From contig CAZDQD010000015.1 of the NCBI GenBank assembly GCA_964507425.1, forward strand, positions 1,071 to 65,070: a stretch of DNA of 64,000 bases, in the 5' to 3' direction. The position numbers were made by a program, and so were the translations under genes. Position 1 is the stretch's first letter. Each line of letters opens with the position of its first letter. The DNA comes from an uncultured Vicinamibacteraceae bacterium (GTDB taxonomy: Bacteria > Acidobacteriota > Vicinamibacteria > Vicinamibacterales > UBA8438). The notes below the pieces were generated by a model that ran no database searches, had not been told where the DNA came from, and saw nothing but the letters and a program-made list of their open reading frames with translations. Positions 14,646 to 39,788 of the stretch are shown here, piece by piece.

Positions 14646-15566
14646 ATGGACAGTAAAAAAGTAGGTTTTATAGGACTTGGGCGTATGGGTCTCGGTATGG
14701 CGAATAATTTGTTAAGGGCAAGGGTGCCGCTAGTCGTCTATGACGTGAGTGAGCAACCGCTCCAGCAATTAGTTGCGGATGGTGTGTCCGTTGCATCCGA
14801 TCCCGCAGACCTTGCCAGTCGTGTCGACTTGCTGTTTGTATGTGTCCCATCGGATACGGAATCGGCCAGCGTGTTGTTTGGAAACCGTGGTGTCGCCACT
14901 ACAAAAGAGGGACTTCCGGTCGTCGACACGACGACGATGAATCATGGTGCCGCGCTGCACCTCGCTGAGCGCTCCCGTGGTGCGGGACTGAACTATGCGG
15001 ATTGTCCGATATCGGGGATGCCGTTTCGGGCAGAAGACGGAACACTCACCATGATGTTTGGTGGCACGGATGAACAGTTTTTAGAGGCGAAGCCGTTTCT
15101 CAACATCATGGGAGAATTTATTGTTCATTGCGGAGATGTTGGAATGGGACAATTGATGAAGGCGGTGAACAACATTATTTACGACGTCAATATTGCAGCT
15201 CTGTCTGAAGTGATGCCGATTGCCGTAAGAGCGGGTCTTAGTGTCGAGACACTCGCGGAGGTCTTAACGACTGCAAGTTCTCGTAGTTTCGCAAGCGAAT
15301 ACTTTGTTCCCAAGATGTTACGGGGAGAATTTGAGGGCGATTTTTCGTTATCTGCTGCCTATAAGGATATCGTCAACATGAAAGAGGTTGCATCGAAGAT
15401 GCAGGTGTCGCTTCCGGTGGTTGACGCGATGGTTTCCAGTTACGACGCAGCTATTGAAATGGGTAATGGACACCAGTCCAAAAGCGCTATGCTCAAGGTG
15501 TACGAAGAACGTTTTCAACAAAAGGTCCGCCTTGCGAAAGAGTCGAGTTCAGCGTCGATGGAGTAA
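14646..15566 (+). CDS. NAD(P)-dependent beta-hydroxyacid dehydrogenase (3-hydroxyisobutyrate/tartronate semialdehyde reductase family)
   Basis: GFIGLGRMGLGMA Rossmann motif, DCPISG, GQLMKAVNN catalytic Lys motif, YKD. Confidence 0.85.
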   Translation: MDSKKVGFIGLGRMGLGMANNLLRARVPLVVYDVSEQPLQQLVADGVSVASDPADLASRVDLLFVCVPSDTESASVLFGNRGVATTKEGLPVVDTTTMNHGAALHLAERSRGAGLNYADCPISGMPFRAEDGTLTMMFGGTDEQFLEAKPFLNIMGEFIVHCGDVGMGQLMKAVNNIIYDVNIAALSEVMPIAVRAGLSVETLAEVLTTASSRSFASEYFVPKMLRGEFEGDFSLSAAYKDIVNMKEVASKMQVSLPVVDAMVSSYDAAIEMGNGHQSKSAMLKVYEERFQQKVRLAKESSSASME

Positions 15567-15615
15567 CTGTTGTCGGCACGAGGGCGCCAGAAGAGCGTGG
15601 GTTTGAAGGAGGGGT

Positions 15616-17589
15616 ATGATGCGAAACGACCGATTGCAGCGGTGCGTAGGCGTTTGTGTGACTGCGTTCCTCACATTAACTGTCTCAGCTGTAAATGCTC
15701 CAGCTCAATCGTCGGTCCCTGACGGTGAATGGCACGCGTTTGGCCGTGATGGTGCGAACACTAAGTATTCTCCGCTGGGGCAAATTACGGCTGAGAACTT
15801 TGTAGACCTTGAGATTGCGTGGCGTTGGACATCATTATCCAAGTCGGTTGTTGATAGCGACGAACGCATCCGCCCACGTGGCTTTGTTGCAACACCACTG
15901 ATGGTTGATGGCGTGGTCTATACGGTAACGGCGTTGGGTCAGGTGGCTGCACTCGACGCAGGTACTGGAGAACAGGTCTGGGAATACGATCCTCGTATTT
16001 ACGATTATCTCGATCGACCACCGAACATGGGTTGGCATCACCGAGGTGTGTCGTATTGGAACGACAACGACAGCGATGATGCGCGGATTTTCATTGCGAG
16101 TCACGATCTTCGTCTCGTCGCCTTGAACGCGAACACTGGTCGGATGTATCCGGATTTTGGCTTGGATGGGTACGTCGACCTGGGTACCGGCTTTGAACGG
16201 GAAATCGATCGTTCTCGGATGACGTACTCCTCGCCAGTGGCAATCGTCGGAGACACCGTCATCGTAGGCAGCATCATCCAAGACACACGATTAACATTGC
16301 GGGAAGCGAACCCTGGACACGTGCGCGCTTATGATGCCAGAACCGGTGAAATGAAGTGGATTTTTAGAACGATTCCGCAGGGTGATGACTTTGGTGTCGA
16401 TAGCTGGGGTAATGAGTCGTGGCGATACAGTGGGCATTCGAATGTATGGTCCTACATGGCAGTCGACGAGGAATTGGGACATGTCTATTTGCCGACTGGC
16501 ACCCCCTCAAATGACTGGTATGGCGGCATGCGGCCTGGTAACAATCTCTTTGCAGAGAGCATTGTCGCGGTTGACGTTGAAACTGGTCAGCGCGTTTGGC
16601 ATTTTCAAGCGATACACCACGGTCTTTGGGATTGGGATTTTCCGACCGGTCCCAATTTGCTTGATATCACGGTAGATGGCCGAGAGATTAAGGCTTTGGC
16701 TCAGGTGAGTAAGCAGGGGTTTACTTACGTGTTTGATCGTGTGACCGGTGAGCCGGTGTGGCCGATCGAGGAGCGACCAGTACCGCAAGGCAATGTGCCC
16801 GGTGAGTGGTATTCTGCAACACAACCGTTTCCGACCAAACCACCACCCTTTACTCGGCAGGGTAGCCAGCTCGATGATCTAATCGATTTCACACCGGAGT
16901 TACGGGCTGAGGCAATTGAAATTGCGAGTCGTGCACAGTTTGGGCCGATATTTTCACCGCCGGTGCTGCGTGGAACCCAAAAACCTTACATACAAGTGCC
17001 AGGGGCAGGGGGTGGTGCCAACTGGCAGGGTGCTGCAGTCGATCCAGAGACGGGTCAGTTGTTTATTTCGTCGTCGAACACGCTTATTGTTGTTGAGGTG
17101 GTGAAGTACGATCCGCCGGCGACGGTCGGTTATTTTACCGATCCGTGGGGTGTTGGTCTGCAGGGACCGGAGGGGCTGCCCTTGTTTAAACCTCCATACA
17201 AGACAATCACGTCGTTTGATTTAAACACGGGAGACAAAGTATGGGTTCAGCCGCACGGTGACGGACCGAGAAATCATCCAGCTATTACACATCTTAATCT
17301 TCCACCGCTGGGCGGTGGTGGAGGCATCAGTTCGGGGCCCTTGGTTACGCCTACTTTGTTGATCATGAATCACGGTGGTCGCGATTACGAAGAACTAACG
17401 GCGGGGGCACAAACTCTTAGTGCTTACGACAAAACAACCGGAGAGCATCTCGGCTCAGTTGACTTGCCAGCGGTACCTGGTGGTAATCCGATCAGCTATA
17501 TGCATCACGGTAACCAGTACATAGCGTTGGCGGTGGGCAGTGCGAGTGGTGACAATAGACCCGAATTGGTTGCGCTTCGATTGCCGTAA
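15616..17589 (+). CDS. Secreted PQQ-dependent dehydrogenase, mGDH-like; close paralog of 2727..4676
   Basis: Same motif set (HHGLWDWD, WPIEERPVP, GGANWQG); shares GYFTDPW and PHGDGPRNHPA with 2727..4676. Confidence 0.88.
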   Translation: MMRNDRLQRCVGVCVTAFLTLTVSAVNAPAQSSVPDGEWHAFGRDGANTKYSPLGQITAENFVDLEIAWRWTSLSKSVVDSDERIRPRGFVATPLMVDGVVYTVTALGQVAALDAGTGEQVWEYDPRIYDYLDRPPNMGWHHRGVSYWNDNDSDDARIFIASHDLRLVALNANTGRMYPDFGLDGYVDLGTGFEREIDRSRMTYSSPVAIVGDTVIVGSIIQDTRLTLREANPGHVRAYDARTGEMKWIFRTIPQGDDFGVDSWGNESWRYSGHSNVWSYMAVDEELGHVYLPTGTPSNDWYGGMRPGNNLFAESIVAVDVETGQRVWHFQAIHHGLWDWDFPTGPNLLDITVDGREIKALAQVSKQGFTYVFDRVTGEPVWPIEERPVPQGNVPGEWYSATQPFPTKPPPFTRQGSQLDDLIDFTPELRAEAIEIASRAQFGPIFSPPVLRGTQKPYIQVPGAGGGANWQGAAVDPETGQLFISSSNTLIVVEVVKYDPPATVGYFTDPWGVGLQGPEGLPLFKPPYKTITSFDLNTGDKVWVQPHGDGPRNHPAITHLNLPPLGGGGGISSGPLVTPTLLIMNHGGRDYEELTAGAQTLSAYDKTTGEHLGSVDLPAVPGGNPISYMHHGNQYIALAVGSASGDNRPELVALRLP

Positions 17590-24919: not shown

Positions 24920-26974
24920 TTAATCTGCTAGTGCGAATGACCAGAACCCAAGGCCTGAGGCGATTGCTACATATTGGCGACCACCGACCATATATGTCAT
25001 GGGTGAGGCTTTCCAGTCTTGGTTTAAGTGGAGATGCCAGAGCGGTTCGCCTGTCGTGGCATCAAGGGCAGCAAAGGCTCCACTATCATCGCCAAAGAAG
25101 ACAAGGCCTCCACTGGTGGATAAGACGCCCGAATACGTTTGCGCCTTTCCAGTTTGTGCGTAACTCCACGCGACATCGCCGGTTTGAATATCAATGGCTC
25201 GGATAAATTTTTGGTTCGGTGAATTTTCGGCGAGTCTGGCTGTGCCGCCTAACCAGCTACGACCACGCTGCCAGTCTCTATCGTTTTTCGTATAAGTCAT
25301 ACATGATTCATGGGCCAATAGATAGAACAGTTGTGTCCCTGGGTTATAGCTCGTAGCCCACCAGTTAGTGGCGCCTCGAATGGCGGGACATACGTCGTTT
25401 CCGTCCTCGGTGGGTTCTGTATTTGGTCGGACAATGGGGCGGCCTGAATCATCGAGTCCATCAGCCCACGTTTGATGGACGAACGGTTCACCAAGGAGAA
25501 ATTGGCCGTTTGTTCGGTCTAGTACGTAAAAGAATCCATTTCTGTTTCCCTGCAGAAGGAGCTTTCGGGGTTGTCCTCGATACACTTCGTCTACAAGTAA
25601 GAGCGGTTCTTGTGCGTCCCAATCGTGTGTGTCGTGCGGTGTGAACTGAAAATACCACTCGAGTGTGCCAGTCTGGGGCCGTAACGCGAGAACAGAATTT
25701 GTATAGAGGTTGTCCCCTGGACGACGGTCTCCGTTGAGATCTGGACAGGGATTCCCAGTGGCCCAGTAAAGAAGGTTGAGCTCCTCATCGTAACTTCCCG
25801 TTAACCACGTTGCACCGCATCCACGCTTGAGTACTTCTGGGTCTCCCCATGTTTCTGAGCCGGCTTCACCTGGAGCCGGGATAGTCCAGAAACGCCAGAC
25901 ACGTTCGCCGGTTTCAGCAGAATAGGCATCCAGGAATCCTCGGAGGCCAGTATCACCTGCGCTGATCCCCGCGATTACAAGTCCATCGACAACGAAAGGG
26001 GCCGCGACGGCGCCGTAATGATCGCGATAATCGGCCATTTCGGCGTCCCAGACGAGTTCGCCGTTATACCGGTTGATCGCGATTACGTGCGCGTGGTCGG
26101 TTACGGTAAATAACAGGTCTTCGCGTATCGCAACGCCCCGGTTGAGTCCGATGGCTGGGTCACCAACGAGGCCCATGGTGCGTGGTTGGGAGTAGCGCCA
26201 CAGTTCTCGTCCAGTCGTGCTATCAAGTGCATACACCTGATTCGGCCCCGTAACATACATAACACCTTCGATCACTACAGGTGTGCCTTCAATCATGGGA
26301 AGGTCAGGAATCGGAAAGAACCACTGGAGGGCCAGTTCGTCAATGGTATCGCGGTTGATTTGGTTCATCGTGCTGTAACGATTGGCGGTGTCACTCCCGT
26401 CGTACGAAGGCCAATCAACAAACGGTTCCGCCTGTTGTTCTCGAAGTTCTCCGTCATTACGACTCAAAAGGTGGAAGGCTCCGTCGGGCGTGCGGAGTTG
26501 CGCGTCAAAGCCACTTTCGTTCACGATCGTCCCGGTAAGAGTTCTTCTGTCACTGAGGTCAAGCGTGTCGTTGTACGGTTCGGGTGCGCGGGGATCCCTT
26601 GCCGCCGGAGCAACCATGGTGGCTAGCTCCTTGAGATAAATGATTAGAGCATCAAGTTCGTCGACTTCAATGTTAAATGAGGGCATTCCCTTCGAGAGCA
26701 CGCCCTGGGTGATGATGCGTGTGAGGCTTTCGGTATTCAGCTGGTACAACTGCGGCAATATTGAACGGGCTCTGTCGGTACCAGCGGCGTCGCCACCATG
26801 GCAGAGTGCACACCGACTTTGGTAGGAATCCGCACCCTGTCCGGTAGCATGTGTTGGGAGTAGCGCGAACAAACCGGCTGTTAAGACGATTGTTAGTAGG
26901 GATTTTCCGCGCACTACGTTAATCTTTGTCTGTGGTTGTACGCACTGGACTTTACAACGGTTCCATTGTGACAT
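24920..26974 (-). CDS. Quinoprotein-type dehydrogenase with N-terminal cytochrome c domain (start uncertain, ~26915-26974)
   Basis: CALCH then KGMPSF; linker beta-domain; DWPSYDG, LNRGVA, GATWLTGSYD, GNPCPD, FTPHDTHDWDAQE. Confidence 0.85.
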   Translation of the reverse strand: MSQWNRCKVQCVQPQTKINVVRGKSLLTIVLTAGLFALLPTHATGQGADSYQSRCALCHGGDAAGTDRARSILPQLYQLNTESLTRIITQGVLSKGMPSFNIEVDELDALIIYLKELATMVAPAARDPRAPEPYNDTLDLSDRRTLTGTIVNESGFDAQLRTPDGAFHLLSRNDGELREQQAEPFVDWPSYDGSDTANRYSTMNQINRDTIDELALQWFFPIPDLPMIEGTPVVIEGVMYVTGPNQVYALDSTTGRELWRYSQPRTMGLVGDPAIGLNRGVAIREDLLFTVTDHAHVIAINRYNGELVWDAEMADYRDHYGAVAAPFVVDGLVIAGISAGDTGLRGFLDAYSAETGERVWRFWTIPAPGEAGSETWGDPEVLKRGCGATWLTGSYDEELNLLYWATGNPCPDLNGDRRPGDNLYTNSVLALRPQTGTLEWYFQFTPHDTHDWDAQEPLLLVDEVYRGQPRKLLLQGNRNGFFYVLDRTNGQFLLGEPFVHQTWADGLDDSGRPIVRPNTEPTEDGNDVCPAIRGATNWWATSYNPGTQLFYLLAHESCMTYTKNDRDWQRGRSWLGGTARLAENSPNQKFIRAIDIQTGDVAWSYAQTGKAQTYSGVLSTSGGLVFFGDDSGAFAALDATTGEPLWHLHLNQDWKASPMTYMVGGRQYVAIASGLGFWSFALAD

Positions 26975-27054
26975 GGCCACTATTTTACGTTGTACGGAGA
27001 GTATTGAGGGTGCTGAAAACAGCATGGTCATGCTTGGATGTGGAGGGGATAGTA

Positions 27055-28044
27055 ATGCCGAGGTTTTTACTGGTGGTGTGGGTGTTAATGGCTGTCGTGG
27101 TGACAGGAGTTGCACCCGTCGATGCTCAAACGGACATTCCTAAGACCCCATGGGGGCAGCCCGACTTGCAGGGTGTTTGGGACTTTCGGACGATTACACC
27201 CATGCAACGTCCTGAGCAATACGGGGACAGAGAGTTTTTGACTGAAGAGGAGGCCGCAGATCTCGATCAAGCGGCAATTGATAGAGAAGAACGGTTATGG
27301 AACCAAGCTGCCGAGCGCACTGAGGCGGGAGGCAACGTTGATAGGCGCGGCGCCGGTCAGGCACCGGGCTCATATAATCAGTTTTGGATCGATGTCGGTA
27401 CGAATACGGTCGACACAAGGAGAACTTCGTTGATTGTCGACCCACTCAATGGTCGCTATCCGTCGTTAACCCCCGCGGGCCAGCGTCGTGCGGCGGAGGG
27501 AAGCGCGAGACGCGATCGGGCAGATTCGTTTACAGACTTTAGTGCCGGTGTGCGCTGTATTTTAGGCTTCAATGCGGGTCCTCCTTTTACTCCGAGCGCA
27601 TATAACAACAACATGCAATTGTTTCAGACCCCAGACACCGTCGCGATTATGACGGAAATGGTGAATACATCTCGAGTTATCCCCCTTGACGGAAGACCTC
27701 ATTTAGACGCGGATGTATTGCAGTGGTCGGGTGATTCGAGAGGTTATTGGGAGGGCGATACGCTAGTTGTCGAAACGAGAAACTTTGATGCTAAGCGTCG
27801 GTGGAGGAATTCAAGTCAACAAATGAGGTTGGTAGAAAAATTCACTCGTGTTGACGCTGATACCTTAGAGTATGAATTCACGATTGCCGACCCTGATACT
27901 TGGGTTTCAGCGTGGACTGCCAATGTGCCTTTACGATTGAATCCCGATCCCGTTTTTGAATTTGCCTGCCATGAAGGAAATTATTCGATGCCGGTCATGT
28001 TGGGAGGGGCTCGGCTGGAGGAGCAAGAGGCCGCCGGGAGATAG
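27055..28044 (+). CDS. Exported conserved hypothetical protein (TPWGxPDxQG...EFACHEGN family)
   Basis: GGAGG upstream of ATG 27055; signal peptide; homologous to the C-terminal half of 31607..33376. Confidence 0.75.
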   Translation: MPRFLLVVWVLMAVVVTGVAPVDAQTDIPKTPWGQPDLQGVWDFRTITPMQRPEQYGDREFLTEEEAADLDQAAIDREERLWNQAAERTEAGGNVDRRGAGQAPGSYNQFWIDVGTNTVDTRRTSLIVDPLNGRYPSLTPAGQRRAAEGSARRDRADSFTDFSAGVRCILGFNAGPPFTPSAYNNNMQLFQTPDTVAIMTEMVNTSRVIPLDGRPHLDADVLQWSGDSRGYWEGDTLVVETRNFDAKRRWRNSSQQMRLVEKFTRVDADTLEYEFTIADPDTWVSAWTANVPLRLNPDPVFEFACHEGNYSMPVMLGGARLEEQEAAGR

Positions 28045-28050
28045 CATCTG

Positions 28051-29883
28051 ATGAAAGTGAGGAGAATGGCGATGATGGACACGCGAAACGAACTATCTCG
28101 TGCCGCCCGGTTGCTGATTGTTCTTTTGGTGGTTGTGGTTGGCGTATTGGGGCGTGTCGACGTTGATGCCCAAACTACGCAGTTTGTACCGGTTACGGAT
28201 GCGATGCTGCAAGATCCAGAGCCAGAGAACTGGCTGATGTGGCGGCGAACGCTTGACAGTTGGGGGTACTCACCGCTCAACCAGATTACGACGGACAATG
28301 TGGACACGATACGAATGGTCTGGTCGCGGGCGCTGGCCCCGGGTATGCAGCAGGGGACACCGCTGGTCTACAACGGTGTCATGTACATGCCAAATCCCCG
28401 CGATGTTATCCAGGCGATTGATGCCGTCACGGGAGATCTGATCTGGGAGTATCGACGAGATCGGCCAGATGATCTCGGCGAGTACATGATTACCGGTCTC
28501 ATCGACACGAATCGAAATCTGGCTATCTTCGACGGTCTGATTATCGATACAAGTGGTGATGACTACGTGTTTGCACTTGATGCCGTGACAGGTGAGTTAG
28601 TGTGGGAAACGGAGATCTTGGATTACAAAGTGAATCCTGCCAATCAAACCTCTGGCCCGATCATCGCCAATGGGAAAGTGGTTTCTGGGCGGAGTTGTAC
28701 GCCGCCACGAAGGCGCGGTGGCAGTTCGCCGGCACGAGGATTGGCCGGAGGACCGGCAGCTTGTGTAATTGTTGCGCACGACGGACTGACGGGTGAGGAG
28801 CTTTGGCGGCGTCGACTGATTCCGGCACCGGGAGAGCCCGGAAATGAGACATGGGGAGATGTGCCGTTTGAGGAGCGTGGCCACGTCGGGTCTTGGATGG
28901 TTCCAAGTTTTGACCCCGAGTTAAACCTCCTGTATATCGGAACTTCAGTGACCTCGCCAGCTCCCAAATTCTTTTTGGGTGGCGTCGACAACACGCATCT
29001 CTACCACAACTCAACGCTAGCGTTAGACGCTGATACGGGTGAAATTGTTTGGCATTACCAGCATCTGAATGATCACTGGGATCTTGATCATCCGTTTGAA
29101 CGTCTCTTGATCGACACGGCTGTGCGCCCTGATCCATCTCTCGTAAGTTGGATTAACCCGAGGCTTCAGCCTGGTCAAGAGCGACGTGTGGTGACAGGTA
29201 TTCCTGGAAAAACCGGCATCGTGTACACACTAGACCGCGAGACGGGCGAGTTTCTTTGGGCGACTGAAACTACAACACAAAATGTGGTCAGCGGTATCGA
29301 CGGGGCAACGGGAGCTGTGACGGAGAACGCAGAGCTCGTGTTTACGCGAGAAGGACAAGAAAATCTCATCTGTCCGTCCTATGTGACGGGTGGAAAAGAT
29401 TGGGAGGCTGGAGCATATAGTCCGTTGACTGGGTTGATGTATTTTCCGCTTCGCAATACGTGCTCTCGTATGATGGCGCTTGATGATGGTTCTCTGTACA
29501 ACTTACCGAAACGAGACCAGATTGCCCCGGGGACAGACCAGGTCGGAACGGTCCAGGCTATTTCTGTTGAAACCGGTGAAATCGTGTGGGTTTATGAGCA
29601 ACGCGCGGGCACCACTTCTCTAGTCGCCACTGGCGGGGGACTGGTGTTTGGAGGCGACGGAAACGGTCGGTTCCGTGCGCTCGATCAAGGGACCGGTGAT
29701 GTGTTGTGGGAAATCAATCTGGGTTCTATGGTCACGGGTTTCCCAATCACATATTCCGTTGATGGGAAGCAGTATGTAGCTACGAGTACCGGTTCTTCGT
29801 TGAGTTCTCGGGACAATATGCGGTTGACGACCGAACTACAGCCGAGTCGTGGGAACAACCTGTTTATTTTTGCACTGCCATGA
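28051..29883 (+). CDS. Secreted PQQ-type beta-propeller dehydrogenase
   Basis: NWLMWRRTLDSWGYSPLNQI, DAVTGDLIWEY, GSWMVPSFD, HLNDHWDLDH, ICPSYVTGGKDW. Confidence 0.85.
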   Translation: MKVRRMAMMDTRNELSRAARLLIVLLVVVVGVLGRVDVDAQTTQFVPVTDAMLQDPEPENWLMWRRTLDSWGYSPLNQITTDNVDTIRMVWSRALAPGMQQGTPLVYNGVMYMPNPRDVIQAIDAVTGDLIWEYRRDRPDDLGEYMITGLIDTNRNLAIFDGLIIDTSGDDYVFALDAVTGELVWETEILDYKVNPANQTSGPIIANGKVVSGRSCTPPRRRGGSSPARGLAGGPAACVIVAHDGLTGEELWRRRLIPAPGEPGNETWGDVPFEERGHVGSWMVPSFDPELNLLYIGTSVTSPAPKFFLGGVDNTHLYHNSTLALDADTGEIVWHYQHLNDHWDLDHPFERLLIDTAVRPDPSLVSWINPRLQPGQERRVVTGIPGKTGIVYTLDRETGEFLWATETTTQNVVSGIDGATGAVTENAELVFTREGQENLICPSYVTGGKDWEAGAYSPLTGLMYFPLRNTCSRMMALDDGSLYNLPKRDQIAPGTDQVGTVQAISVETGEIVWVYEQRAGTTSLVATGGGLVFGGDGNGRFRALDQGTGDVLWEINLGSMVTGFPITYSVDGKQYVATSTGSSLSSRDNMRLTTELQPSRGNNLFIFALP

Positions 29884-33421: not shown

Positions 33422-35380
33422 GTGCGGCGATCAGTAGCTGTCGTAGTTTTACTTTGCGGAGCCCCGCTCACTTTTGCGCAGGAGACTGCCACCGATATGG
33501 TCGAGTGGCGTTACGTTGGTTCAGATCAAGGCGCATCGAAGTACTCCCCCCTTACGGACATTAATCGTTCGAATATTGATCGCTTGGAGGTGGCGTGGAC
33601 CTGGGAACCTAACGAATTGCCGAACATGGAATATCAAACGCGGCCGGGAAGTTTTGAAGCCATGCCGTTAATGATCGAAAACGTGCTCTATTTGTCCACG
33701 ATGTACACAAAGGTGGTCGCGCTCGACGCGGATACAGGGGAACAATTGTGGATGTTTGACCCGGAGGCTTATCGTACGGGTCCGTTGGGGGCTGGTGTTG
33801 GCGGGTATAAACATCGTGGGGTTGCTACTTGGTCTGACGGGAACTCGATGAAAGTGTTTCTTAATAGCCGAGACTCGTTGTACGCGCTCGATGCGACAAG
33901 CGGTGCGCTGATTCCCACGTTTGGTGTTCAGGGAAAGGTCAAATTGACTGATGGTTTTGACCGTGAGGTGACCTACGACGAATTTGATCAAACATCTCCT
34001 CCGGTCGTGTACGAGGATTTAGTGATTGTTGGGAGCCGAGTGCCAGATCAGCTCCAACATCGGTTTGACACTCCTGGTTCGGTGCAGGCGTTTGATGTGC
34101 ATACCGGAGAACGGCGATGGGTGTTTTATACGATTCCTCAAACCAATGATGAATATGGCGCCGATACGTGGGAGGATGGCTCGTGGCGGTATACGGGACA
34201 CGCTAATGTCTGGGGGCTAATGTCGTTGGATGAAGAGCGGGGCTTGTTGTATTTACCGACGAGCACTCCGAGTAGCGACTACTATGGCGGTCGTCGACTC
34301 GGTGCGAATTTGTTCGCCGAGTCGATTGTATGTCTAGATGCGAGCACTGGGGAGCGTCTGTGGCATTTTCAGGGCGTTCATCATGGGCTTTGGGATTATG
34401 ACTTTACCGCTGCTCCGAACCTGATGACGTTGGCGGTTGATGGTCGTCAAATCGATGCTGTTGCAGAGGTGTCGAAGCAAGGGTTTACCTATGTGTTTGA
34501 TCGCGTGACAGGTGAACCAGTGTGGCCAATTGAAGAACGCCCGGTCGATACAGAGACAGACGTTCCAGGAGAGATTCCCTACCCGACCCAACCTTTTCCG
34601 ACAAAACCACCACCGTTTGCTGTTCAGGGAATATCGCTAGATGATGCGAATGACTTAACACCGGAGATCCATCGGTTGGCTCTTGAGGAAATGCAGACAT
34701 ACAGGCTCGGCCCATTGTTTACGCCTCCGAGTCTCCGTGGCACGTTACAGCGACCATCGGCGGGTGGAGGGGCAAATTGGGGTGGAGCAGCTCTCGATCC
34801 GGAGACCAACTATCTGTACGTAAGGTCTTCAGAACGTTTGACGCCGAACCAAATTTGTAAGACGCCTGAAGGGACAACGGGGGTTGACCTGGAGTACACG
34901 AACAACTGTCCACGTGGAGGTTCGCAAGGGATATTTACAATGTTGCCTGGTTATGTGGCCGCTGAACGTAGACAATTGGGCCCCATTCCCCTAATAAAGC
35001 CGCCGTATGCGTTTCTAGTGGCAATTGACCTGAACGTGGGGGAAATTGCGTGGAAGGTTCCTTTTGGTGAAGGGAGCCGCCTCGTAAGAAACCATCCGCT
35101 CTTACGTGGCACAACCGGCTTGCCTGAACGCTTAGGCACCGTTGGTAACAATGGACCGATGGTCACGGGGGGTGGATTAGTGTTTATGGGAGGCGGCGAC
35201 CCTTATCTTTATGCGTTTGATGCCGAAACAGGTCAAGAGCTTGGTCGGCATGCGACGGAGTTTAGGACCACGGGAAATCCGATGACCTATAGGTCACGTG
35301 GCGGACGACAGTTTATTGTGATTGCGACAGGAGCTGGACCTGATGCTTCACTTGTTGCGTTTGCCTTGCCCAACGAGTGA
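33422..35380 (+). CDS. Secreted PQQ-dependent dehydrogenase, mGDH-like
   Basis: SKYSPLTDINRSN, FEAMPL, HHGLWDYD, WPIEERPV, GGANWGG. Confidence 0.88.
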   Translation: MRRSVAVVVLLCGAPLTFAQETATDMVEWRYVGSDQGASKYSPLTDINRSNIDRLEVAWTWEPNELPNMEYQTRPGSFEAMPLMIENVLYLSTMYTKVVALDADTGEQLWMFDPEAYRTGPLGAGVGGYKHRGVATWSDGNSMKVFLNSRDSLYALDATSGALIPTFGVQGKVKLTDGFDREVTYDEFDQTSPPVVYEDLVIVGSRVPDQLQHRFDTPGSVQAFDVHTGERRWVFYTIPQTNDEYGADTWEDGSWRYTGHANVWGLMSLDEERGLLYLPTSTPSSDYYGGRRLGANLFAESIVCLDASTGERLWHFQGVHHGLWDYDFTAAPNLMTLAVDGRQIDAVAEVSKQGFTYVFDRVTGEPVWPIEERPVDTETDVPGEIPYPTQPFPTKPPPFAVQGISLDDANDLTPEIHRLALEEMQTYRLGPLFTPPSLRGTLQRPSAGGGANWGGAALDPETNYLYVRSSERLTPNQICKTPEGTTGVDLEYTNNCPRGGSQGIFTMLPGYVAAERRQLGPIPLIKPPYAFLVAIDLNVGEIAWKVPFGEGSRLVRNHPLLRGTTGLPERLGTVGNNGPMVTGGGLVFMGGGDPYLYAFDAETGQELGRHATEFRTTGNPMTYRSRGGRQFIVIATGAGPDASLVAFALPNE

Positions 35381-36032: not shown

Positions 36033-37802
36033 CTATTCATCGAGTGCGAAGACGAATAGGTAGCTTGAGTTTTCGAGTTGATCCCAGTTCACGGGGTGCA
36101 GGTGTCTGCCGCTCGTCTGGACCGCTATGTACTGCTTAGGTCCGATTGCGTACGTGACGGGGGCTCCCTTGAGAGGTGTTCCGACATTGAACCGCCAGAG
36201 TTCCTGCAGTGTCTCGTCGTTGTAGGCGACCACCCAGCCATCCTGAAGCGCGCTGAAGACTAGTCCCCCCGCCGTTACTGTCGCGCCGGAACGAACCTCA
36301 ATGTCAGTGACGACCTTTGCAAGTACCTCATGGTCGACTGCGTCGACTGCTGTGATGGAGCCGTAGTACAGCTCACTTGTGTACTCACGCCGTTCACTCG
36401 CCTGATTGTCGACGTTGCCCTCTGGTCCAACCGACGCAACAGCCGCTCCATTTTGCGAGAAACACCCTTCTGTGCCAACGCCATAAGCAATTCCCTTGTC
36501 AGGGTTAAAAGCTGTCGGTTGGTGAGCCACGCCTCCGTGCCAGGTCGGACACGCGCGCTTCATGGTGTCTCGGTCAGCCCGCAACGCACGCGCTTCTTCG
36601 TTGTAAATCTGTACATCAAGATTTGCGTCGTACTCGAGTGGCATACCTGTTTGTGGGTTGATGCCAGCGGTCCAATTGAGTTCGTTGACGTACTGACCAG
36701 CTCTGATGAACGAACCGTCGTTTCGATCGACGGTATAAAAAAAGCCGTTACGAGCATAATGCGACACCACGTTTCGCAATTGACCCTCGATGGTGAGGTC
36801 ATAAAGCAGATGGATCCCAACTTCGTCGTAGTCCCATGAATCATTTGGCGTGTATTGGAAATGCCATCTACGCTCACCAGTTTCGATGTCTAGTGCGACT
36901 GCGGAGTTTGTGTATAGGTTGTCGCCGGGACGAAATTCTGGGTCATAGATTGGGTACGGATTTCCCGTACCGAAAATGTACAGCTTATTAACTGGGTCGT
37001 ACGAGCCGGTTTGCCAGACGCCGCCACCGCCGGTTTTCCACGCGTTGTGGTCGTCTCTCCAGGTCTCGCTTCCTGGCTGGCCGGGCTCTGGAACGGTATA
37101 CCAGCGCCAGAGTTCATTTCCATTTTCGATGTCGAGTGCTGCGACCCATCCACGTGTGCCACCGTCACCAGCACCGTTCTGGACAAGAACTTTTCCATCG
37201 GCGACCAGTGGTGCAGTTAGAAAACGCTCTCGACGTCCGAACTCAGTTACGCCTGCCACCTCGACATCCCAAATGATTTCGCCGTCGTCTCGATCAATGG
37301 CAACCACGCGACCGTCTGGAAGATTCGAGATTACCTTGTCTTCCCAAAGTGCAATTCCTCTTGACCTGGACGTATTACCTTCATGGTCAACACCGGGATC
37401 GGCTATCCACACAAATTTCGCGTGGTCTGGGGCACGAGCGTCAATCTTGTAGACAGTTCCCCAGCCGTCAGCCGTGTACATGAAACCATTGTCGATTAAC
37501 GGATTGAGTTCAGCTTCAGGACCGTTCTGACCGGTGTCTTGCATGCCGCCAATAGCAAGTGCCCACACCATTCGAAGGTTGCTGACGTTGTCTCGATTGA
37601 TCTGGGTTAACCGCGAATATCTGTTTGAGCCGTAGTCACCGTTCATGAGGAGCCAGTTTTGAGGCTCGTTCGCGGCGTTTTCTAGGCGTTCTTTATTTAC
37701 GGTTAGCGAGTACTGACCAGTAAGAACTATTGTCGATGCAGCCAGAATGGCAGCAATGAGAAATGTGCTGATTTCGCCGTGAGAACGGTAATGCTGACGC
37801 AT
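36033..37802 (-). CDS. Secreted PQQ-type dehydrogenase, alcohol-dehydrogenase-like scaffold
   Basis: GGAGG RBS; NWLLMNGDYGSNRYSRLTQIN, GGGVWQTGSYD, GTGNP, YTPNDSWDYDE. Confidence 0.85.
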   Translation of the reverse strand: MRQHYRSHGEISTFLIAAILAASTIVLTGQYSLTVNKERLENAANEPQNWLLMNGDYGSNRYSRLTQINRDNVSNLRMVWALAIGGMQDTGQNGPEAELNPLIDNGFMYTADGWGTVYKIDARAPDHAKFVWIADPGVDHEGNTSRSRGIALWEDKVISNLPDGRVVAIDRDDGEIIWDVEVAGVTEFGRRERFLTAPLVADGKVLVQNGAGDGGTRGWVAALDIENGNELWRWYTVPEPGQPGSETWRDDHNAWKTGGGGVWQTGSYDPVNKLYIFGTGNPYPIYDPEFRPGDNLYTNSAVALDIETGERRWHFQYTPNDSWDYDEVGIHLLYDLTIEGQLRNVVSHYARNGFFYTVDRNDGSFIRAGQYVNELNWTAGINPQTGMPLEYDANLDVQIYNEEARALRADRDTMKRACPTWHGGVAHQPTAFNPDKGIAYGVGTEGCFSQNGAAVASVGPEGNVDNQASERREYTSELYYGSITAVDAVDHEVLAKVVTDIEVRSGATVTAGGLVFSALQDGWVVAYNDETLQELWRFNVGTPLKGAPVTYAIGPKQYIAVQTSGRHLHPVNWDQLENSSYLFVFALDE

Positions 37803-37904: not shown

Positions 37905-39788
37905 ATGCGTTTAACTTGGATTTCTGCAGTTATCTGCTTGTTCATGTCTGTGTTGTTGGTCCAGTGCGGTGGTGGATCGGAAATAATGGAGAGTGAGACC
38001 CCTAGCACGGTCGTGGAGCATACCGACTGGCCTATGTATCGAGGTAATTATTCGGGTACGGGATATTCAGAGCTTTCTGATGTCTCAATTTTGAACGTCG
38101 GCACGCTATCACGTGCGTGGGTTTACGATTTGAATCGAAGGAATCCTGGTTCCGAGGATCGCGGACCAAACTCCCAGGTAACACCCATAGTTGTGGACGG
38201 TGTCATGTATTTGCCTGCAGCTGATCGAGTTGTCGCAATTGATCCTGATTCTGGGCAGGAGATCTGGGCGCACCTGTTAGATGACGCAATGGGGGCGCCG
38301 TCGCGTCGTGGTGTTGCCTACTGGCCAGGGGATGGTGATTTCGATGCGCGCATCATATTTGTAACGGGATCACATCTTCGTGCATTGGACGCAAGTACGG
38401 GGGACCCTGTCGTTGAATTTGGCGACGACGGAGCGATTGCACTCGGCGTGCCATATAACTCTGTTCCACTCGTTTATCGTCATGTTGCAGTGGTTGGAGC
38501 GAACACTCCACGCGGTGAGATTGGCGGTATTGGTAATGCGCGTGCCTACGACGTTCGGACAGGTGAAATGCTCTGGGAATTCGACTCGGTCGCTCAGCCA
38601 GGTGACGTGGGACACGACACGTGGGACGGAGACAGTTGGCGGGATCGGCTGGGGGCGAATGCCTGGCCATTTTATTTTACGTTGGATGAAGCGCGAGGTG
38701 TTCTGTACCTCCCGTTGGCCTCACCAATTCCTGGTTATTACGGTGGTGACCGTGCTGGGGCGAACCTTTATGGAAATTCTGTGGTGGCAGTGACTGCGGA
38801 GACGGGTGAGTACCTGTGGCATTTCCAGACGATCCACCATGATTTATGGGATGCGGACCCACCGGCTCCGCCGGTTCTGTTTGATATGGAACGTGACGGG
38901 GCGACGGTTCCAGCGCTCGGTGTGACGACGAAATCTGGATACCTCTATATCCTGAATCGAGAAACAGGTGCGGTGCTCTATGACGTAGAAGAACGGCCGG
39001 TCAGCGCGAGTGATGTTCCGGGTGAAGTCACATACCCAACCCAACCGATTCCGGCTGTTACACCGTCGATGGGTCGCGTCTCCTATAGTGCAGAGGACTT
39101 GGTTACAGCAAATGAGACTACGGACGAGCACGCTGCGGCCTGTTCCGCACTGGTAGAGAGTTTAGGTGAGGTCGTTAATGCAGGTCCCTTTACACCGTGG
39201 GCATATCGCCGTGAGAATGGTAATCCCCGGACAACATTGAACTTTCCTGGAGGCGTTGGTGGCCCAAACTGGGGTGGGGCAGCGTTCGACCCGACGTCTG
39301 GGTATATTTTCGTGATGTCTATGGATGTCGGTGCATTGGGTTGGATGGTTGATGCGGATGACGAGACCGCCGGCCCATATCGCAAGGAAACACCGAGACC
39401 GGCTAGCTTTGAAGTAGACATTGCTGGTACTCGCATGCCGTGCCAAAAACCACCATGGGGCCAATTAACGGCGGGTGACAGTGCAACGGGAGGTATTGCC
39501 TGGCGTGTTCCATTGGGTATCACTGACTGGCTGCCTGATGGCAAACAAGGCACGGGTCGCCCGGGCCGGGCGGCTGCGGTCGTTACAGGCGGCGACTTAC
39601 TTTTTATTGCTTCGACAGACGATAATCGTTTCCGTGCTGTCCAGGCGACTACTGGGCAGGAACTGTGGGTTGATCAGCTGGACGGCCGGGGCAATGCAAA
39701 TCCGATGACGTATCGAGGAAACGACGGCCGTCAATACATTGTCATCACTGCGACGGATACGGTTGTTGCGTATGCGCTACCCGATTAG
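37905..39788 (+). CDS. Secreted PQQ-dependent dehydrogenase, mGDH-like, possible lipoprotein
   Basis: DWPMYRG, SQVTPIVVDG, HHDLWDAD, PTQPIP, GGPNWGG, CQKPPWG. Confidence 0.85.
   Translation: MRLTWISAVICLFMSVLLVQCGGGSEIMESETPSTVVEHTDWPMYRGNYSGTGYSELSDVSILNVGTLSRAWVYDLNRRNPGSEDRGPNSQVTPIVVDGVMYLPAADRVVAIDPDSGQEIWAHLLDDAMGAPSRRGVAYWPGDGDFDARIIFVTGSHLRALDASTGDPVVEFGDDGAIALGVPYNSVPLVYRHVAVVGANTPRGEIGGIGNARAYDVRTGEMLWEFDSVAQPGDVGHDTWDGDSWRDRLGANAWPFYFTLDEARGVLYLPLASPIPGYYGGDRAGANLYGNSVVAVTAETGEYLWHFQTIHHDLWDADPPAPPVLFDMERDGATVPALGVTTKSGYLYILNRETGAVLYDVEERPVSASDVPGEVTYPTQPIPAVTPSMGRVSYSAEDLVTANETTDEHAAACSALVESLGEVVNAGPFTPWAYRRENGNPRTTLNFPGGVGGPNWGGAAFDPTSGYIFVMSMDVGALGWMVDADDETAGPYRKETPRPASFEVDIAGTRMPCQKPPWGQLTAGDSATGGIAWRVPLGITDWLPDGKQGTGRPGRAAAVVTGGDLLFIASTDDNRFRAVQATTGQELWVDQLDGRGNANPMTYRGNDGRQYIVITATDTVVAYALPD

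What the first reader, a model, noticed from the sequence alone, without database searches (positions are those of the whole stretch)
24920..26974. N-terminal cytochrome c quinoprotein resembling the 'acido-empty-quinoprotein' type, with a D-x-D motif
Seen: heme domain at the N-terminus (the reverse of classical type II ADH), a small linker beta-domain, PHDTHDWDAQE, metal-ligand position Asp (SAGDTGLRG), and no vicinal disulfide. Known: an extra Asp two residues after the catalytic Asp marks lanthanide-dependent XoxF/PedH; as I recall, a TIGRFAM family of this name covers such proteins in Acidobacteria lacking PQQ synthesis. Inference: a lanthanide-using or non-PQQ-cofactor quinohemoprotein.
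Basis: partly seen in the sequence, partly recalled or inferred. Interest (0 to 1): 0.62.

Follow-up and report, generated by a model that had tools for sequence, protein, structure and literature searches.

The report
Heme-first lanthanide-type PQQ dehydrogenase
This gene of a marine acidobacterium encodes an exported alcohol-type dehydrogenase with its own heme domain at the front and a lanthanide-type metal site; it most likely runs on PQQ taken up from seawater, so it is an untested variant of a known enzyme class and not a carrier of a new cofactor.

Summary
Window 24920..26974 (-) is one intact ORF. It encodes a signal peptide, a class I cytochrome c domain (CALCH, conserved Met), a small five-stranded beta barrel, and an eight-bladed PQQ-type propeller. 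When aligned to solved PedH, the motifs are D451-W-D453 (the lanthanide-type D-x-D), Asp341 where PedH has the metal-binding Glu, and Pro-Ala where PedH has the vicinal Cys-Cys.

TIGR04528 is the best NCBIfam hit, but at 533 bits it falls below the 650-bit cut-off. A tree also places the protein outside the one true TIGR04528 member in this genome, next to canonical Cys-Cys/Glu paralogues.

The genome is a 3.0 Mb marine Vicinamibacterales MAG. It lacks PqqC and PqqE but encodes a PqqU-like TonB-dependent PQQ importer. Orthologues at 64-79% identity occur in more than 50 acidobacterial genomes, and at least 7 of the 19 checked do encode PqqC. All the PQQ- and metal-contacting residues I checked are invariant in those orthologues, except one Trp that is Tyr/Phe. 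Scavenged PQQ plus a lanthanide is therefore the likely cofactor set, and a non-PQQ cofactor is unlikely.

About 65 paralogues sit in this genome, and 60 of 66 carry D-x-D. That expansion was published in 2025. I found no characterised lanthanide-type quinohemoprotein with an N-terminal heme domain.

The parts
24920..26974 (-). The more likely start is the GTG at 26914 (664 aa).
   Evidence: orthologues are 659-664 aa and their consensus begins MR... at this point
26840..26914 (-). Predicted Sec signal peptide (V/M-RGKSLLTIVLTAGLFALLPTHATG)
   Evidence: Read directly from the sequence: a basic N-region, a hydrophobic core, and small residues before Gln46. Orthologues have the same layout. No signal-peptide program was run.
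26615..26839 (-). Class I cytochrome c domain, with heme attachment at CALCH (26798-26812) and a presumed axial Met97 (26684-26686)
   Evidence: Pfam PF13442 matches residues 45-114, E 3.8e-9. C55, C58, H59 and M97 are invariant in 59 relatives. Foldseek gives weak matches (E 0.03-0.2, none below 0.001) to cytochromes c6/c553 over the domain, TM 0.58-0.66.
26438..26575 (-). Small five-stranded SH3/Sm-like beta barrel between heme domain and propeller, with the conserved motif G-T-I-(V/L)-N-E-S-G-F-D-A-Q
   Evidence: AlphaFold2 strands at model residues 114-159, pLDDT 92-97 in the fragment model. Motif conservation is shown. There is no significant PDB match; the best are Hfq-like barrels at E ~0.2. 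Di-heme relatives share the domain, but the other N-terminal-heme paralogues of this genome do not.
24923..26416 (-). Eight-bladed PQQ-type beta-propeller catalytic domain
   Evidence: PF01011 257 bits; TIGR04528 532.6 bits; TIGR03075 468.3 bits. Best solved relatives are PedH 6ZCV/6ZCW, by sequence at E 5e-90 and by fold at E 9e-45, TM 0.82.
25616..25624 (-). D451-W-D453: the catalytic Asp plus the extra Asp two residues on (lanthanide-type motif)
   Evidence: Aligned to D-F-D of PedH; invariant in 59 relatives
25952..25954 (-). Asp341 at the position of the metal-binding Glu of PedH and methanol dehydrogenase
   Evidence: SAGDTG aligns with AGGEFG of PedH. The residue is Asp in 54 of 54 close orthologues; two deeper relatives keep Glu.
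25751..25753 (-). Asn408, at the position of the metal-binding Asn in the GNP motif
   Evidence: Aligned to GNPAP of PedH; invariant
26153..26158 (-). Pro273-Ala274 in place of the vicinal Cys-Cys of classical PQQ alcohol dehydrogenases
   Evidence: alignment; the position is P/A followed by A/G in all 59 relatives
25745..25819 (-). Clade-specific invariant Cys386 (25817-25819) and Cys410 (25745-25747), which flank Trp390 and Asn408. They may form a disulfide.
   Evidence: Both are invariant in alignment A1. Position 386 is Gly, Ala or His in paralogues and sister clades.

Best explanation
The gene encodes a periplasmic quinohemoprotein dehydrogenase of the PQQ alcohol-dehydrogenase superfamily.

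Shown:
- The domain order is signal peptide, mono-heme class I cytochrome c, small SH3-like barrel, eight-bladed propeller.
- The propeller keeps an invariant PQQ pocket and a metal site made of Asp341, Asn408, Asp451 and Asp453.
- The protein belongs to a conserved orthologue group of Vicinamibacterales and Bryobacterales.

Inferred:
- The propeller binds PQQ with a trivalent lanthanide as Lewis acid, because it has the PedH/XoxF-type D-x-D.
- An alcohol, aldehyde or sugar-type substrate is oxidised at Asp451.
- The two electrons pass from PQQH2 to the enzyme's own N-terminal heme c, and then to a soluble cytochrome or oxidase.
- This genome has no PqqC or PqqE, so the PQQ is imported through the PqqU-like TonB-dependent transporter on contig C126.

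The substrate is unknown.
For: - Domains.
- Closest solved proteins by sequence and by fold are lanthanide-dependent PedH (6ZCV/6ZCW), followed by type II quinohemoprotein alcohol dehydrogenases.
- In 54 orthologues at 64% identity or more, these are 100% conserved: CxxCH, Met97, Glu229, Arg279, Asp341, Trp390, Asn408, Asp451-Trp-Asp453, Arg478, Asn537, Trp538 and Trp678.
- More than 120 clusters at 73% identity or more exist in public data, annotated only generically.
- PqqC is absent from G000 by HMM and by tblastn with an acidobacterial PqqC. PqqE-like hits reach only 52 bits or less against a 381-bit cut-off.
- The PqqC search works, and the enzyme also occurs in PQQ producers: 7 of 19 orthologue-bearing genomes pass the PqqC cut-off.
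- The PqqU-like transporter is 29% identical to E. coli PqqU over its full length (E 6e-75), whereas other TonB receptors reach only ~1e-10. Its best NCBIfam hit is TonB_rec_PqqU at 309 bits, against 154 bits for the next model. Phe aligns at Tyr99 and Arg at Arg365 of the published Y99/R304/R365 signature.
- A PqqU-like gene is present in all six PqqC-less Vicinamibacterales genomes tested.
- Literature: aquatic Vicinamibacteria carry PqqU without PQQ synthesis (PMC12124388). Marine Acidobacteria MAGs hold up to 70 lanthanide-motif PQQ dehydrogenases (PMC11996626).
Against: - No activity, metal or cofactor data exist for any member of the family.
- The metal-binding Glu is Asp, a combination not found in any solved lanthanide enzyme that I compared. 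The motif-based call could therefore be wrong about the metal.
- D-x-D occurs in 60 of 66 paralogues here, so it discriminates little.
- The vicinal disulfide that lies next to PQQ in classical enzymes is missing, and the Trp476-equivalent is Tyr or Phe.
- The PqqU candidate is far below NCBIfam's narrow cut-off (309 against 1200 bits), and its Arg304-equivalent falls in an alignment gap.
- Five complete Bryobacterales genomes carry the orthologue but have neither PqqC nor a PqqU-like gene at E <= 1e-60.
- The heme-to-PQQ distance in the model could not be measured.
Confidence: 0.68

Rival explanations
1. The enzyme is a PQQ quinohemoprotein of the same kind, but its metal is Ca2+ or another non-lanthanide ion. 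In this reading the Asp-for-Glu change reshapes the site, and D-x-D is simply the ancestral state of these acidobacterial clades.
For: D-x-D is present in 60 of 66 paralogues whatever their clade, so it may carry little information here. Asp341 replaces the Glu ligand found in every solved lanthanide enzyme that I compared. Ca2+ is about nine orders of magnitude more abundant than lanthanides in seawater (figures quoted in PMC11996626).
Against: In the characterised enzymes named in the papers read (XoxF, PedH, ExaF), the extra Asp goes with lanthanide use, and the field treats it as diagnostic (PMC11996626; bioRxiv 10.64898/2026.07.10.737718). The closest solved protein is lanthanide-dependent PedH. 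Asp453 is invariant.
Confidence: 0.15
2. The propeller holds no PQQ. It carries another cofactor, possibly protein-derived, or none at all, as the name 'empty quinoprotein' suggests.
For: G000 has no PqqC or PqqE. Five complete Bryobacterales genomes have the orthologue but neither PqqC nor a PqqU-like importer. The vicinal disulfide is lost, the Trp476-equivalent is Tyr or Phe, and there is a new invariant Cys386/Cys410 pair near the pocket.
Against: Glu229, Arg279, Trp390, Asn408, Arg478, Asn537 and Trp678, which contact PQQ in methanol and ethanol dehydrogenases (their roles are recalled from memory), are invariant. The orthologue coexists with PqqC in at least 7 genomes. A PqqU-like importer is present here. 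PQQ scavenging by PQQ-less bacteria is well documented (PMC12124388).
Confidence: 0.06
3. The protein is a non-catalytic heme-propeller protein, for example a binding or assembly factor like BamB, that merely descends from dehydrogenases.
For: BamB-type models give weak matches. The family is hugely expanded, and some copies may have lost their function.
Against: The catalytic Asp, all metal ligands and the heme ligands are invariant across orthologues of 64-79% identity. The BamB matches are about 400 bits weaker than the dehydrogenase matches.
Confidence: 0.03

Closest known systems
PedH of Pseudomonas putida KT2440 (PDB 6ZCV/6ZCW), a lanthanide-dependent PQQ alcohol dehydrogenase
   Same: It has the same eight-bladed propeller (33-34% identity; fold TM 0.82 on the target). 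It shares the D-x-D motif, the Asn ligand and the Arg, Trp and Asn residues of the PQQ pocket.
   Different: PedH has no heme domain, has the vicinal Cys-Cys, and uses Glu where this protein has Asp341. It lacks the Cys386/Cys410 pair.
Type II quinohemoprotein alcohol dehydrogenases (ADH IIB 1KV9, qhEDH 1KB0, ADH IIG 1YIQ)
   Same: These are single polypeptides that combine a PQQ propeller with a mono-heme cytochrome c for internal electron transfer. The propeller matches at E 1e-79 to 1e-88.
   Different: Their cytochrome domain is C-terminal and joined by a plain linker. Here it is N-terminal and followed by an SH3-like barrel. They also keep the vicinal disulfide.
NCBIfam TIGR04528 'acido-empty-quinoprotein group A'
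   Same: It is the best-scoring curated model (532.6 bits). The one true member in this genome (contig C78) also lacks Cys-Cys, has Asp at the Glu position and has D-W-D.
   Different: The score is below the 650-bit cut-off. The query is only 35% identical to the true member, against 43-45% to canonical Cys-Cys/Glu paralogues, and it branches apart in the tree. The true member has no heme domain.
Polyvinyl-alcohol dehydrogenase PvaA (EC 1.1.2.6) of Pseudomonas sp. VM15C and Sphingopyxis
   Same: It is a PQQ dehydrogenase with a heme c site in the same polypeptide (PMC11644497, PMC6472588). That the heme site is N-terminal is my recollection, not a test.
   Different: PvaA is described with a Ca2+ site. 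I did not compare the sequences because no PvaA sequence was at hand, so the relationship is untested.
Cytochrome cd1 nitrite reductase NirS and NirN (e.g. PDB 1NIR, 6RTD)
   Same: The layout is analogous: an N-terminal class I cytochrome c ahead of an eight-bladed propeller. These were the top, weak, fold hits of the N-terminal fragment (E 3e-3).
   Different: The propeller family and the cofactor (heme d1) are unrelated. This is an analogy of architecture only.

Membership tests
TIGR04528 acido-empty-quinoprotein group A | HMM score at or above the curated cut-off (650 bits) | tested here: not met
   The score is 532.6 bits and 533.7 bits in the genome scan. Contig C78 of the same genome passes with 714 bits.
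TIGR04528 acido-empty-quinoprotein group A | Host lacks PQQ biosynthesis (the reason for the family's name, as I recall it) | tested here: inconclusive
   This holds for G000: no PqqC and no PqqE above cut-off, although the genome is 94% complete. It does not hold for the orthologue group as a whole, because 7 of 19 genomes encode PqqC.
TIGR03075 PQQ-dependent dehydrogenase, methanol/ethanol family | HMM score at or above the curated cut-off (480.05 bits) | tested here: not met
   The score is 468.3 bits, just below the cut-off.
Pfam PF01011 PQQ beta-propeller dehydrogenases | Domain match above the gathering score | tested here: met
   The score is 257.4 bits against 26.7. All top 30 fold matches are PQQ dehydrogenases.
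Lanthanide-dependent PQQ dehydrogenases (XoxF/PedH/ExaF type) | Extra Asp two residues after the catalytic Asp (D-x-D) | tested here: met
   D451-W-D453 aligns to D-F-D of PedH and is invariant in 59 relatives.
Lanthanide-dependent PQQ dehydrogenases (XoxF/PedH/ExaF type) | Glu and Asn as the remaining protein ligands of the metal | tested here: not met
   Asn408 is kept, but the Glu is Asp341 in all 54 close orthologues.
Lanthanide-dependent PQQ dehydrogenases (XoxF/PedH/ExaF type) | Activity that requires a lanthanide and PQQ | not testable with these tools
   This needs purified protein.
Type II quinohemoprotein alcohol dehydrogenases | Covalent heme c site (CxxCH plus axial Met) in the same chain as the propeller | tested here: met
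   CALCH at residues 55-59 and Met97 are present; PF13442 matches at E 3.8e-9.
Type II quinohemoprotein alcohol dehydrogenases | Cytochrome domain C-terminal to the propeller, and a vicinal Cys-Cys next to PQQ | tested here: not met
   The heme domain is N-terminal, and the chain ends 6 residues after the last propeller Trp. The Cys-Cys position holds Pro-Ala.
PqqU (TonB-dependent PQQ importer), for the contig C126 gene invoked in the mechanism | Published signature Y99 (or F/W), R304, R365 (PMC12124388), and the NCBIfam NF041535 cut-off | tested here: inconclusive
   Phe aligns at Y99 and Arg at R365, while R304 falls in an alignment gap with an Arg nearby. NF041535 is the best model at 309 bits, but its cut-off is 1200.

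The most novel reading that the evidence does not exclude
This orthologue group may be the first lanthanide-dependent quinohemoprotein. It would have a distinct metal site (Asp-Asn-Asp-Asp) and a Cys386-Cys410 bridge in place of the vicinal disulfide, and it would pass electrons to a built-in N-terminal heme held in place by an SH3-like barrel. In the Bryobacterales that have the enzyme but neither PqqC nor a PqqU-like importer, it may acquire PQQ by an unknown route or use a different cofactor.
Probability: 0.3. Interest if true: 0.6.

Novelty: new variant of a known kind. Interest (0 to 1): 0.42.

Why it matters
Lanthanide-type PQQ dehydrogenases appear to dominate this enzyme class in the ocean, yet only a few clades have been characterised (XoxF, ExaF, PedH). 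None of those named in the papers I read carries its own heme.

This family is abundant in marine and soil Acidobacteria. More than 120 clusters (grouped at 90% identity) lie at 73% identity or more to this protein, and orthologues occur in more than 50 species-level genomes. It combines three departures from the textbook active site: Asp for Glu, no vicinal disulfide, and a new Cys pair. It also has a reversed domain order.

Characterising one member would do three things. It would test how far the D-x-D rule predicts metal choice. It would show whether the disulfide is needed for PQQ-to-heme electron transfer. It would give a self-contained lanthanide enzyme suitable for bioelectrochemistry.

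The result also removes most of the 'empty quinoprotein' puzzle for Vicinamibacterales, which scavenge PQQ. The puzzle stays open for Bryobacterales.

Tried and rejected
- Strict TIGR04528 membership: rejected on score and on the tree.
- An operon partner that might hint at the substrate: none found. The gene sits alone on the minus strand between convergent mqnD and a divergent secreted barrel-protein gene. The neighbours are conserved only as general synteny among the closest marine relatives.
- Promoter and terminator scan: nothing above the shuffled expectation.
- Fold identity of the linker barrel: no significant PDB match, only Hfq/Sm-like barrels at E ~0.2.
- Measuring the heme-to-PQQ-pocket and Cys386-Cys410 distances: not possible, because the model coordinates are not exposed.
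- Comparison with polyvinyl-alcohol dehydrogenase through the plasmid collection: no PVA dehydrogenase appeared among the top hits. Only 3 of 586 plasmid records cover the heme domain as well; one of them is a Deinococcus plasmid at 29% identity.
- Literature search for 'acido-empty-quinoprotein', and for a lanthanide quinohemoprotein with an N-terminal cytochrome: no papers.
- Tying the three other N-terminal-heme paralogues of this genome (contigs C136, C28, C19) to the same fusion: rejected. They lack the SH3-like barrel and have Lys and Gln at two pocket positions.
Full report
**What is there.** Window 24920..27115 on the minus strand is one open frame. Orthologues are 659-664 residues long and their consensus begins 'MR...'. 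The GTG at 26914 is therefore the more likely start. The protein then opens with a typical Sec signal peptide, MRGKSLLTIVLTAGLFALLPTHATG. The gene lies alone on its strand. Downstream is convergent mqnD (Pfam VitK2_biosynth). Upstream is a divergent gene for a secreted protein with no Pfam family.

**Domains.**
- Pfam finds Cytochrome_CBB3 at residues 45-114 and the PQQ propeller PF01011 (257 bits).
- NCBIfam ranks TIGR04528 'acido-empty-quinoprotein group A' first at 532.6 bits, below its 650-bit cut-off. TIGR03075, the PQQ methanol/ethanol dehydrogenase family, is second at 468.3 bits, just below its cut-off of 480.
- An AlphaFold2 model built on 60 relatives has mean pLDDT 83.6 and pTM 0.80. 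It shows helices for the cytochrome, five short strands at P0001 residues ~134-179, and then the propeller.
- A separate model of the first 175 residues gives the small barrel pLDDT 92-97.
- Foldseek places the whole model next to lanthanide-dependent PedH (6ZCV, E 9e-45, TM 0.82 on the target). Type II quinohemoprotein and XoxF structures follow.
- The N-terminal fragment gave no PDB match below E 0.001. Its weak hits fall into three groups. The cytochrome part resembles c6/c553-type cytochromes. The barrel part resembles Hfq-like barrels at E ~0.2. The top hits, at E 3e-3 to 2e-2, are cd1 nitrite reductases, which share the 'cytochrome c then eight-bladed propeller' layout by analogy only.

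**Active site.** In the HMMER alignment to PedH:
- HDWDA lines up with WDFDG, so Asp451 is the catalytic Asp and Asp453 is the extra, lanthanide-type Asp.
- GNPCP lines up with GNPAP, giving the Asn408 ligand.
- SAGDTG lines up with AGGEFG, so the metal-binding Glu is Asp341.
- DPAIG lines up with PCCDV, so the vicinal Cys-Cys is Pro-Ala.

**Conservation in relatives.** I collected 59 relatives from species-representative genomes, 54 of them at 64% identity or more. They are mostly Vicinamibacterales and Bryobacterales. The following are invariant in the 54 close orthologues: CxxCH, Met97, Glu229, Arg279, Asp341, Trp390, Asn408, Asp451-Trp-Asp453, Arg478, Asn537, Trp538 and Trp678. The position equivalent to Trp476 of methanol dehydrogenase is Tyr or Phe. 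The roles of these residues in PQQ binding come from my memory of the methanol and ethanol dehydrogenase structures. Four further Cys are invariant. Cys529 and Cys558 are shared with many paralogues. At Cys386, every paralogue and sister-clade sequence has Gly, Ala or His; Cys386 and Cys410 bracket Trp390 and Asn408. They may form a disulfide that stiffens the floor of the pocket, but I could not measure distances.

**Family placement.** The genome is 3.0 Mb in 166 contigs and 94% complete. It holds about 65 PQQ-propeller paralogues.
- In an alignment of all of them, 60 of 66 have D-x-D, only 4 have the vicinal Cys-Cys, and 5 have an N-terminal CxxCH. D-x-D is the rule in this organism, not a mark of this gene.
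- The four closest paralogues (43-45% identity) are canonical: Cys-Cys, Glu, D-W/Y-D.
- The only paralogue that passes TIGR04528 (contig C78, 714 bits) is 35% identical. Like the query, it lacks Cys-Cys and has Asp at the Glu position.
- A FastTree of the propeller domains puts the query, its orthologues and a set of deeper soil relatives in one clade that is sister to the canonical group. All members of this clade lack Cys-Cys, nearly all have Asp, and all but one (L074, whose open frame has no heme motif) carry one or two N-terminal heme domains. The TIGR04528 member branches outside both groups. No branch supports were examined.
- The di-heme relatives share the SH3-like barrel and its E-S-x-F-D motif. 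The three other N-terminal-heme paralogues of this genome do not, so those fusions are separate.

The protein is thus not a TIGR04528 member. It belongs to a distinct, unnamed clade.

**Cofactor supply.**
- PqqC is absent from the genome by HMM and by tblastn with an acidobacterial PqqC. PqqE-like hits are only generic radical-SAM matches of 52 bits or less.
- The PqqC search is valid. In 19 orthologue-bearing genomes, most of them closed chromosomes, 7 pass the PqqC cut-off and one has a split copy. The enzyme therefore also occurs in PQQ producers, which argues that it uses PQQ.
- Contig C126 encodes a TonB-dependent receptor that is 29% identical to E. coli PqqU over its whole length (E 6e-75; other receptors reach ~1e-10). 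Its best NCBIfam model is TonB_rec_PqqU at 309 bits, against 154 bits for the next. This is far below the narrow 1200-bit cut-off.
- Of the published Y99/R304/R365 signature (PMC12124388), Phe aligns at 99 and Arg at 365, while 304 falls in a gap.
- A gene of this kind is present in all six PqqC-less Vicinamibacterales genomes tested and in six of seven PqqC-positive ones. It is absent from five complete Bryobacterales genomes that also lack PqqC.
- Munder et al. reported PqqU in aquatic Vicinamibacteria that lack PQQ synthesis, and concluded that these bacteria scavenge PQQ (PMC12124388).

For this organism, then, the 'empty quinoprotein' paradox has an ordinary answer. For Bryobacterales it remains open.

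**Literature.**
- The expansion itself is published. [quoted passage not shown] That paper mentions neither heme nor PQQ biosynthesis.
- A 2026 preprint extends lanthanide motifs to six-bladed enzymes and discusses separate cytochromes.
- I found no paper that holds 'acido-empty-quinoprotein', and none that combines quinohemoprotein, an N-terminal cytochrome c domain and lanthanide.
- Polyvinyl-alcohol dehydrogenase is a known PQQ enzyme with a heme c site in the same chain. That its heme site is N-terminal is my recollection. No sequence comparison was possible.

**Mechanism proposed.**
- Shown: export signal, heme c site, PQQ-type pocket, and a four-carboxylate/amide metal site with D-x-D.
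- Inferred: PQQ and a light lanthanide bind in the propeller. Asp451 abstracts the proton from an alcohol-type substrate. PQQH2 passes electrons one at a time to the N-terminal heme, which the SH3-like barrel holds over the propeller face. The heme then reduces a soluble periplasmic cytochrome or an oxidase.
- Unknown: the substrate, the effect of Asp341 on metal choice, and how the enzyme copes without the vicinal disulfide.

**Verdict.** This is a new, widespread but uncharacterised variant of a known enzyme class, within an already published genomic phenomenon.

Noticed in passing
whole genome G000 (window = C15:1071-65070); in the window e.g. 15616-17589, 28051-29883, 33422-35380, 36033-37802, 37905-39788: There are about 65 PQQ-propeller paralogues in a 3.0 Mb genome. 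Of 66 aligned sequences, 60 have D-x-D, only 4 keep the vicinal Cys-Cys, and about 30 have Asp at the metal-Glu position. This matches the published report of marine Acidobacteria MAGs with up to 70 lanthanide-motif PQQ dehydrogenases (PMC11996626).
   Followed up: partly
L068:5983-8289, L070, L071, L072:5926-8220, L073:5965-8274, L075 (second copy, ORF from 8344): Deeper relatives at 43-52% identity, from soil Acidobacteriota, carry two N-terminal CxxCH cytochrome domains, then the same SH3-like barrel and an extra helix ahead of the propeller. The clade therefore has mono-heme and di-heme forms.
   Followed up: partly
genomes of L033, L047, L050, L073, L026 (handles G005, G012, G013, G016, G018): Five Bryobacterales genomes (four closed chromosomes and one multi-contig assembly) encode the orthologue but have no PqqC and no PqqU-like receptor at E <= 1e-60. 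Their PQQ source is unexplained.
   Followed up: partly
G017:C3:1879187-1879866 (genome of L021): PqqC matches in two adjacent frames (model positions 2-107 and 103-228). This is either a frameshifted gene or an assembly error. The genome is 11.3 Mb and may be a mixed bin.
   Followed up: no
G000 contigs C136 (o2802, 708 aa), C28 (o597, 720 aa), C19 (o427, 763 aa): Three further paralogues have an N-terminal CxxCH domain but no SH3-like barrel. They have Lys at the Arg478 position, Gln at the Asn408 position and D-L-D. This looks like a separate heme-propeller fusion.
   Followed up: partly
window 26926-28044 (+), likely start near 27058: The divergent neighbour has no Pfam match and a signal peptide. 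It recurs 1-3.5 kb upstream of the orthologue in about nine related loci, but it is not directly adjacent there.
   Followed up: partly
G000:C126:26215-28125 (-): This is a PqqU-like TonB-dependent receptor. Its open frame of 779 aa is longer than the 700 aa of E. coli PqqU, which suggests an N-terminal extension or an upstream open stretch.
   Followed up: partly
G001:C1:7794-9749 and G001:C1:6321160-6323115 (genome of L016): Two PqqU-like hits with identical scores lie near the two ends of a 6.4 Mb chromosome record. This may be an overlap of the ends of a circular assembly and not a real duplication.
   Followed up: no
plasmid NZ_CP092187.1 (Deinococcus sp. KNUC1210) 15505-17319: This is one of only 3 plasmid records (of 586 with a match) that cover 80% or more of the query (residues 46-674, 29% identity). 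An N-terminal-heme quinoprotein therefore exists outside Acidobacteria.
   Followed up: no
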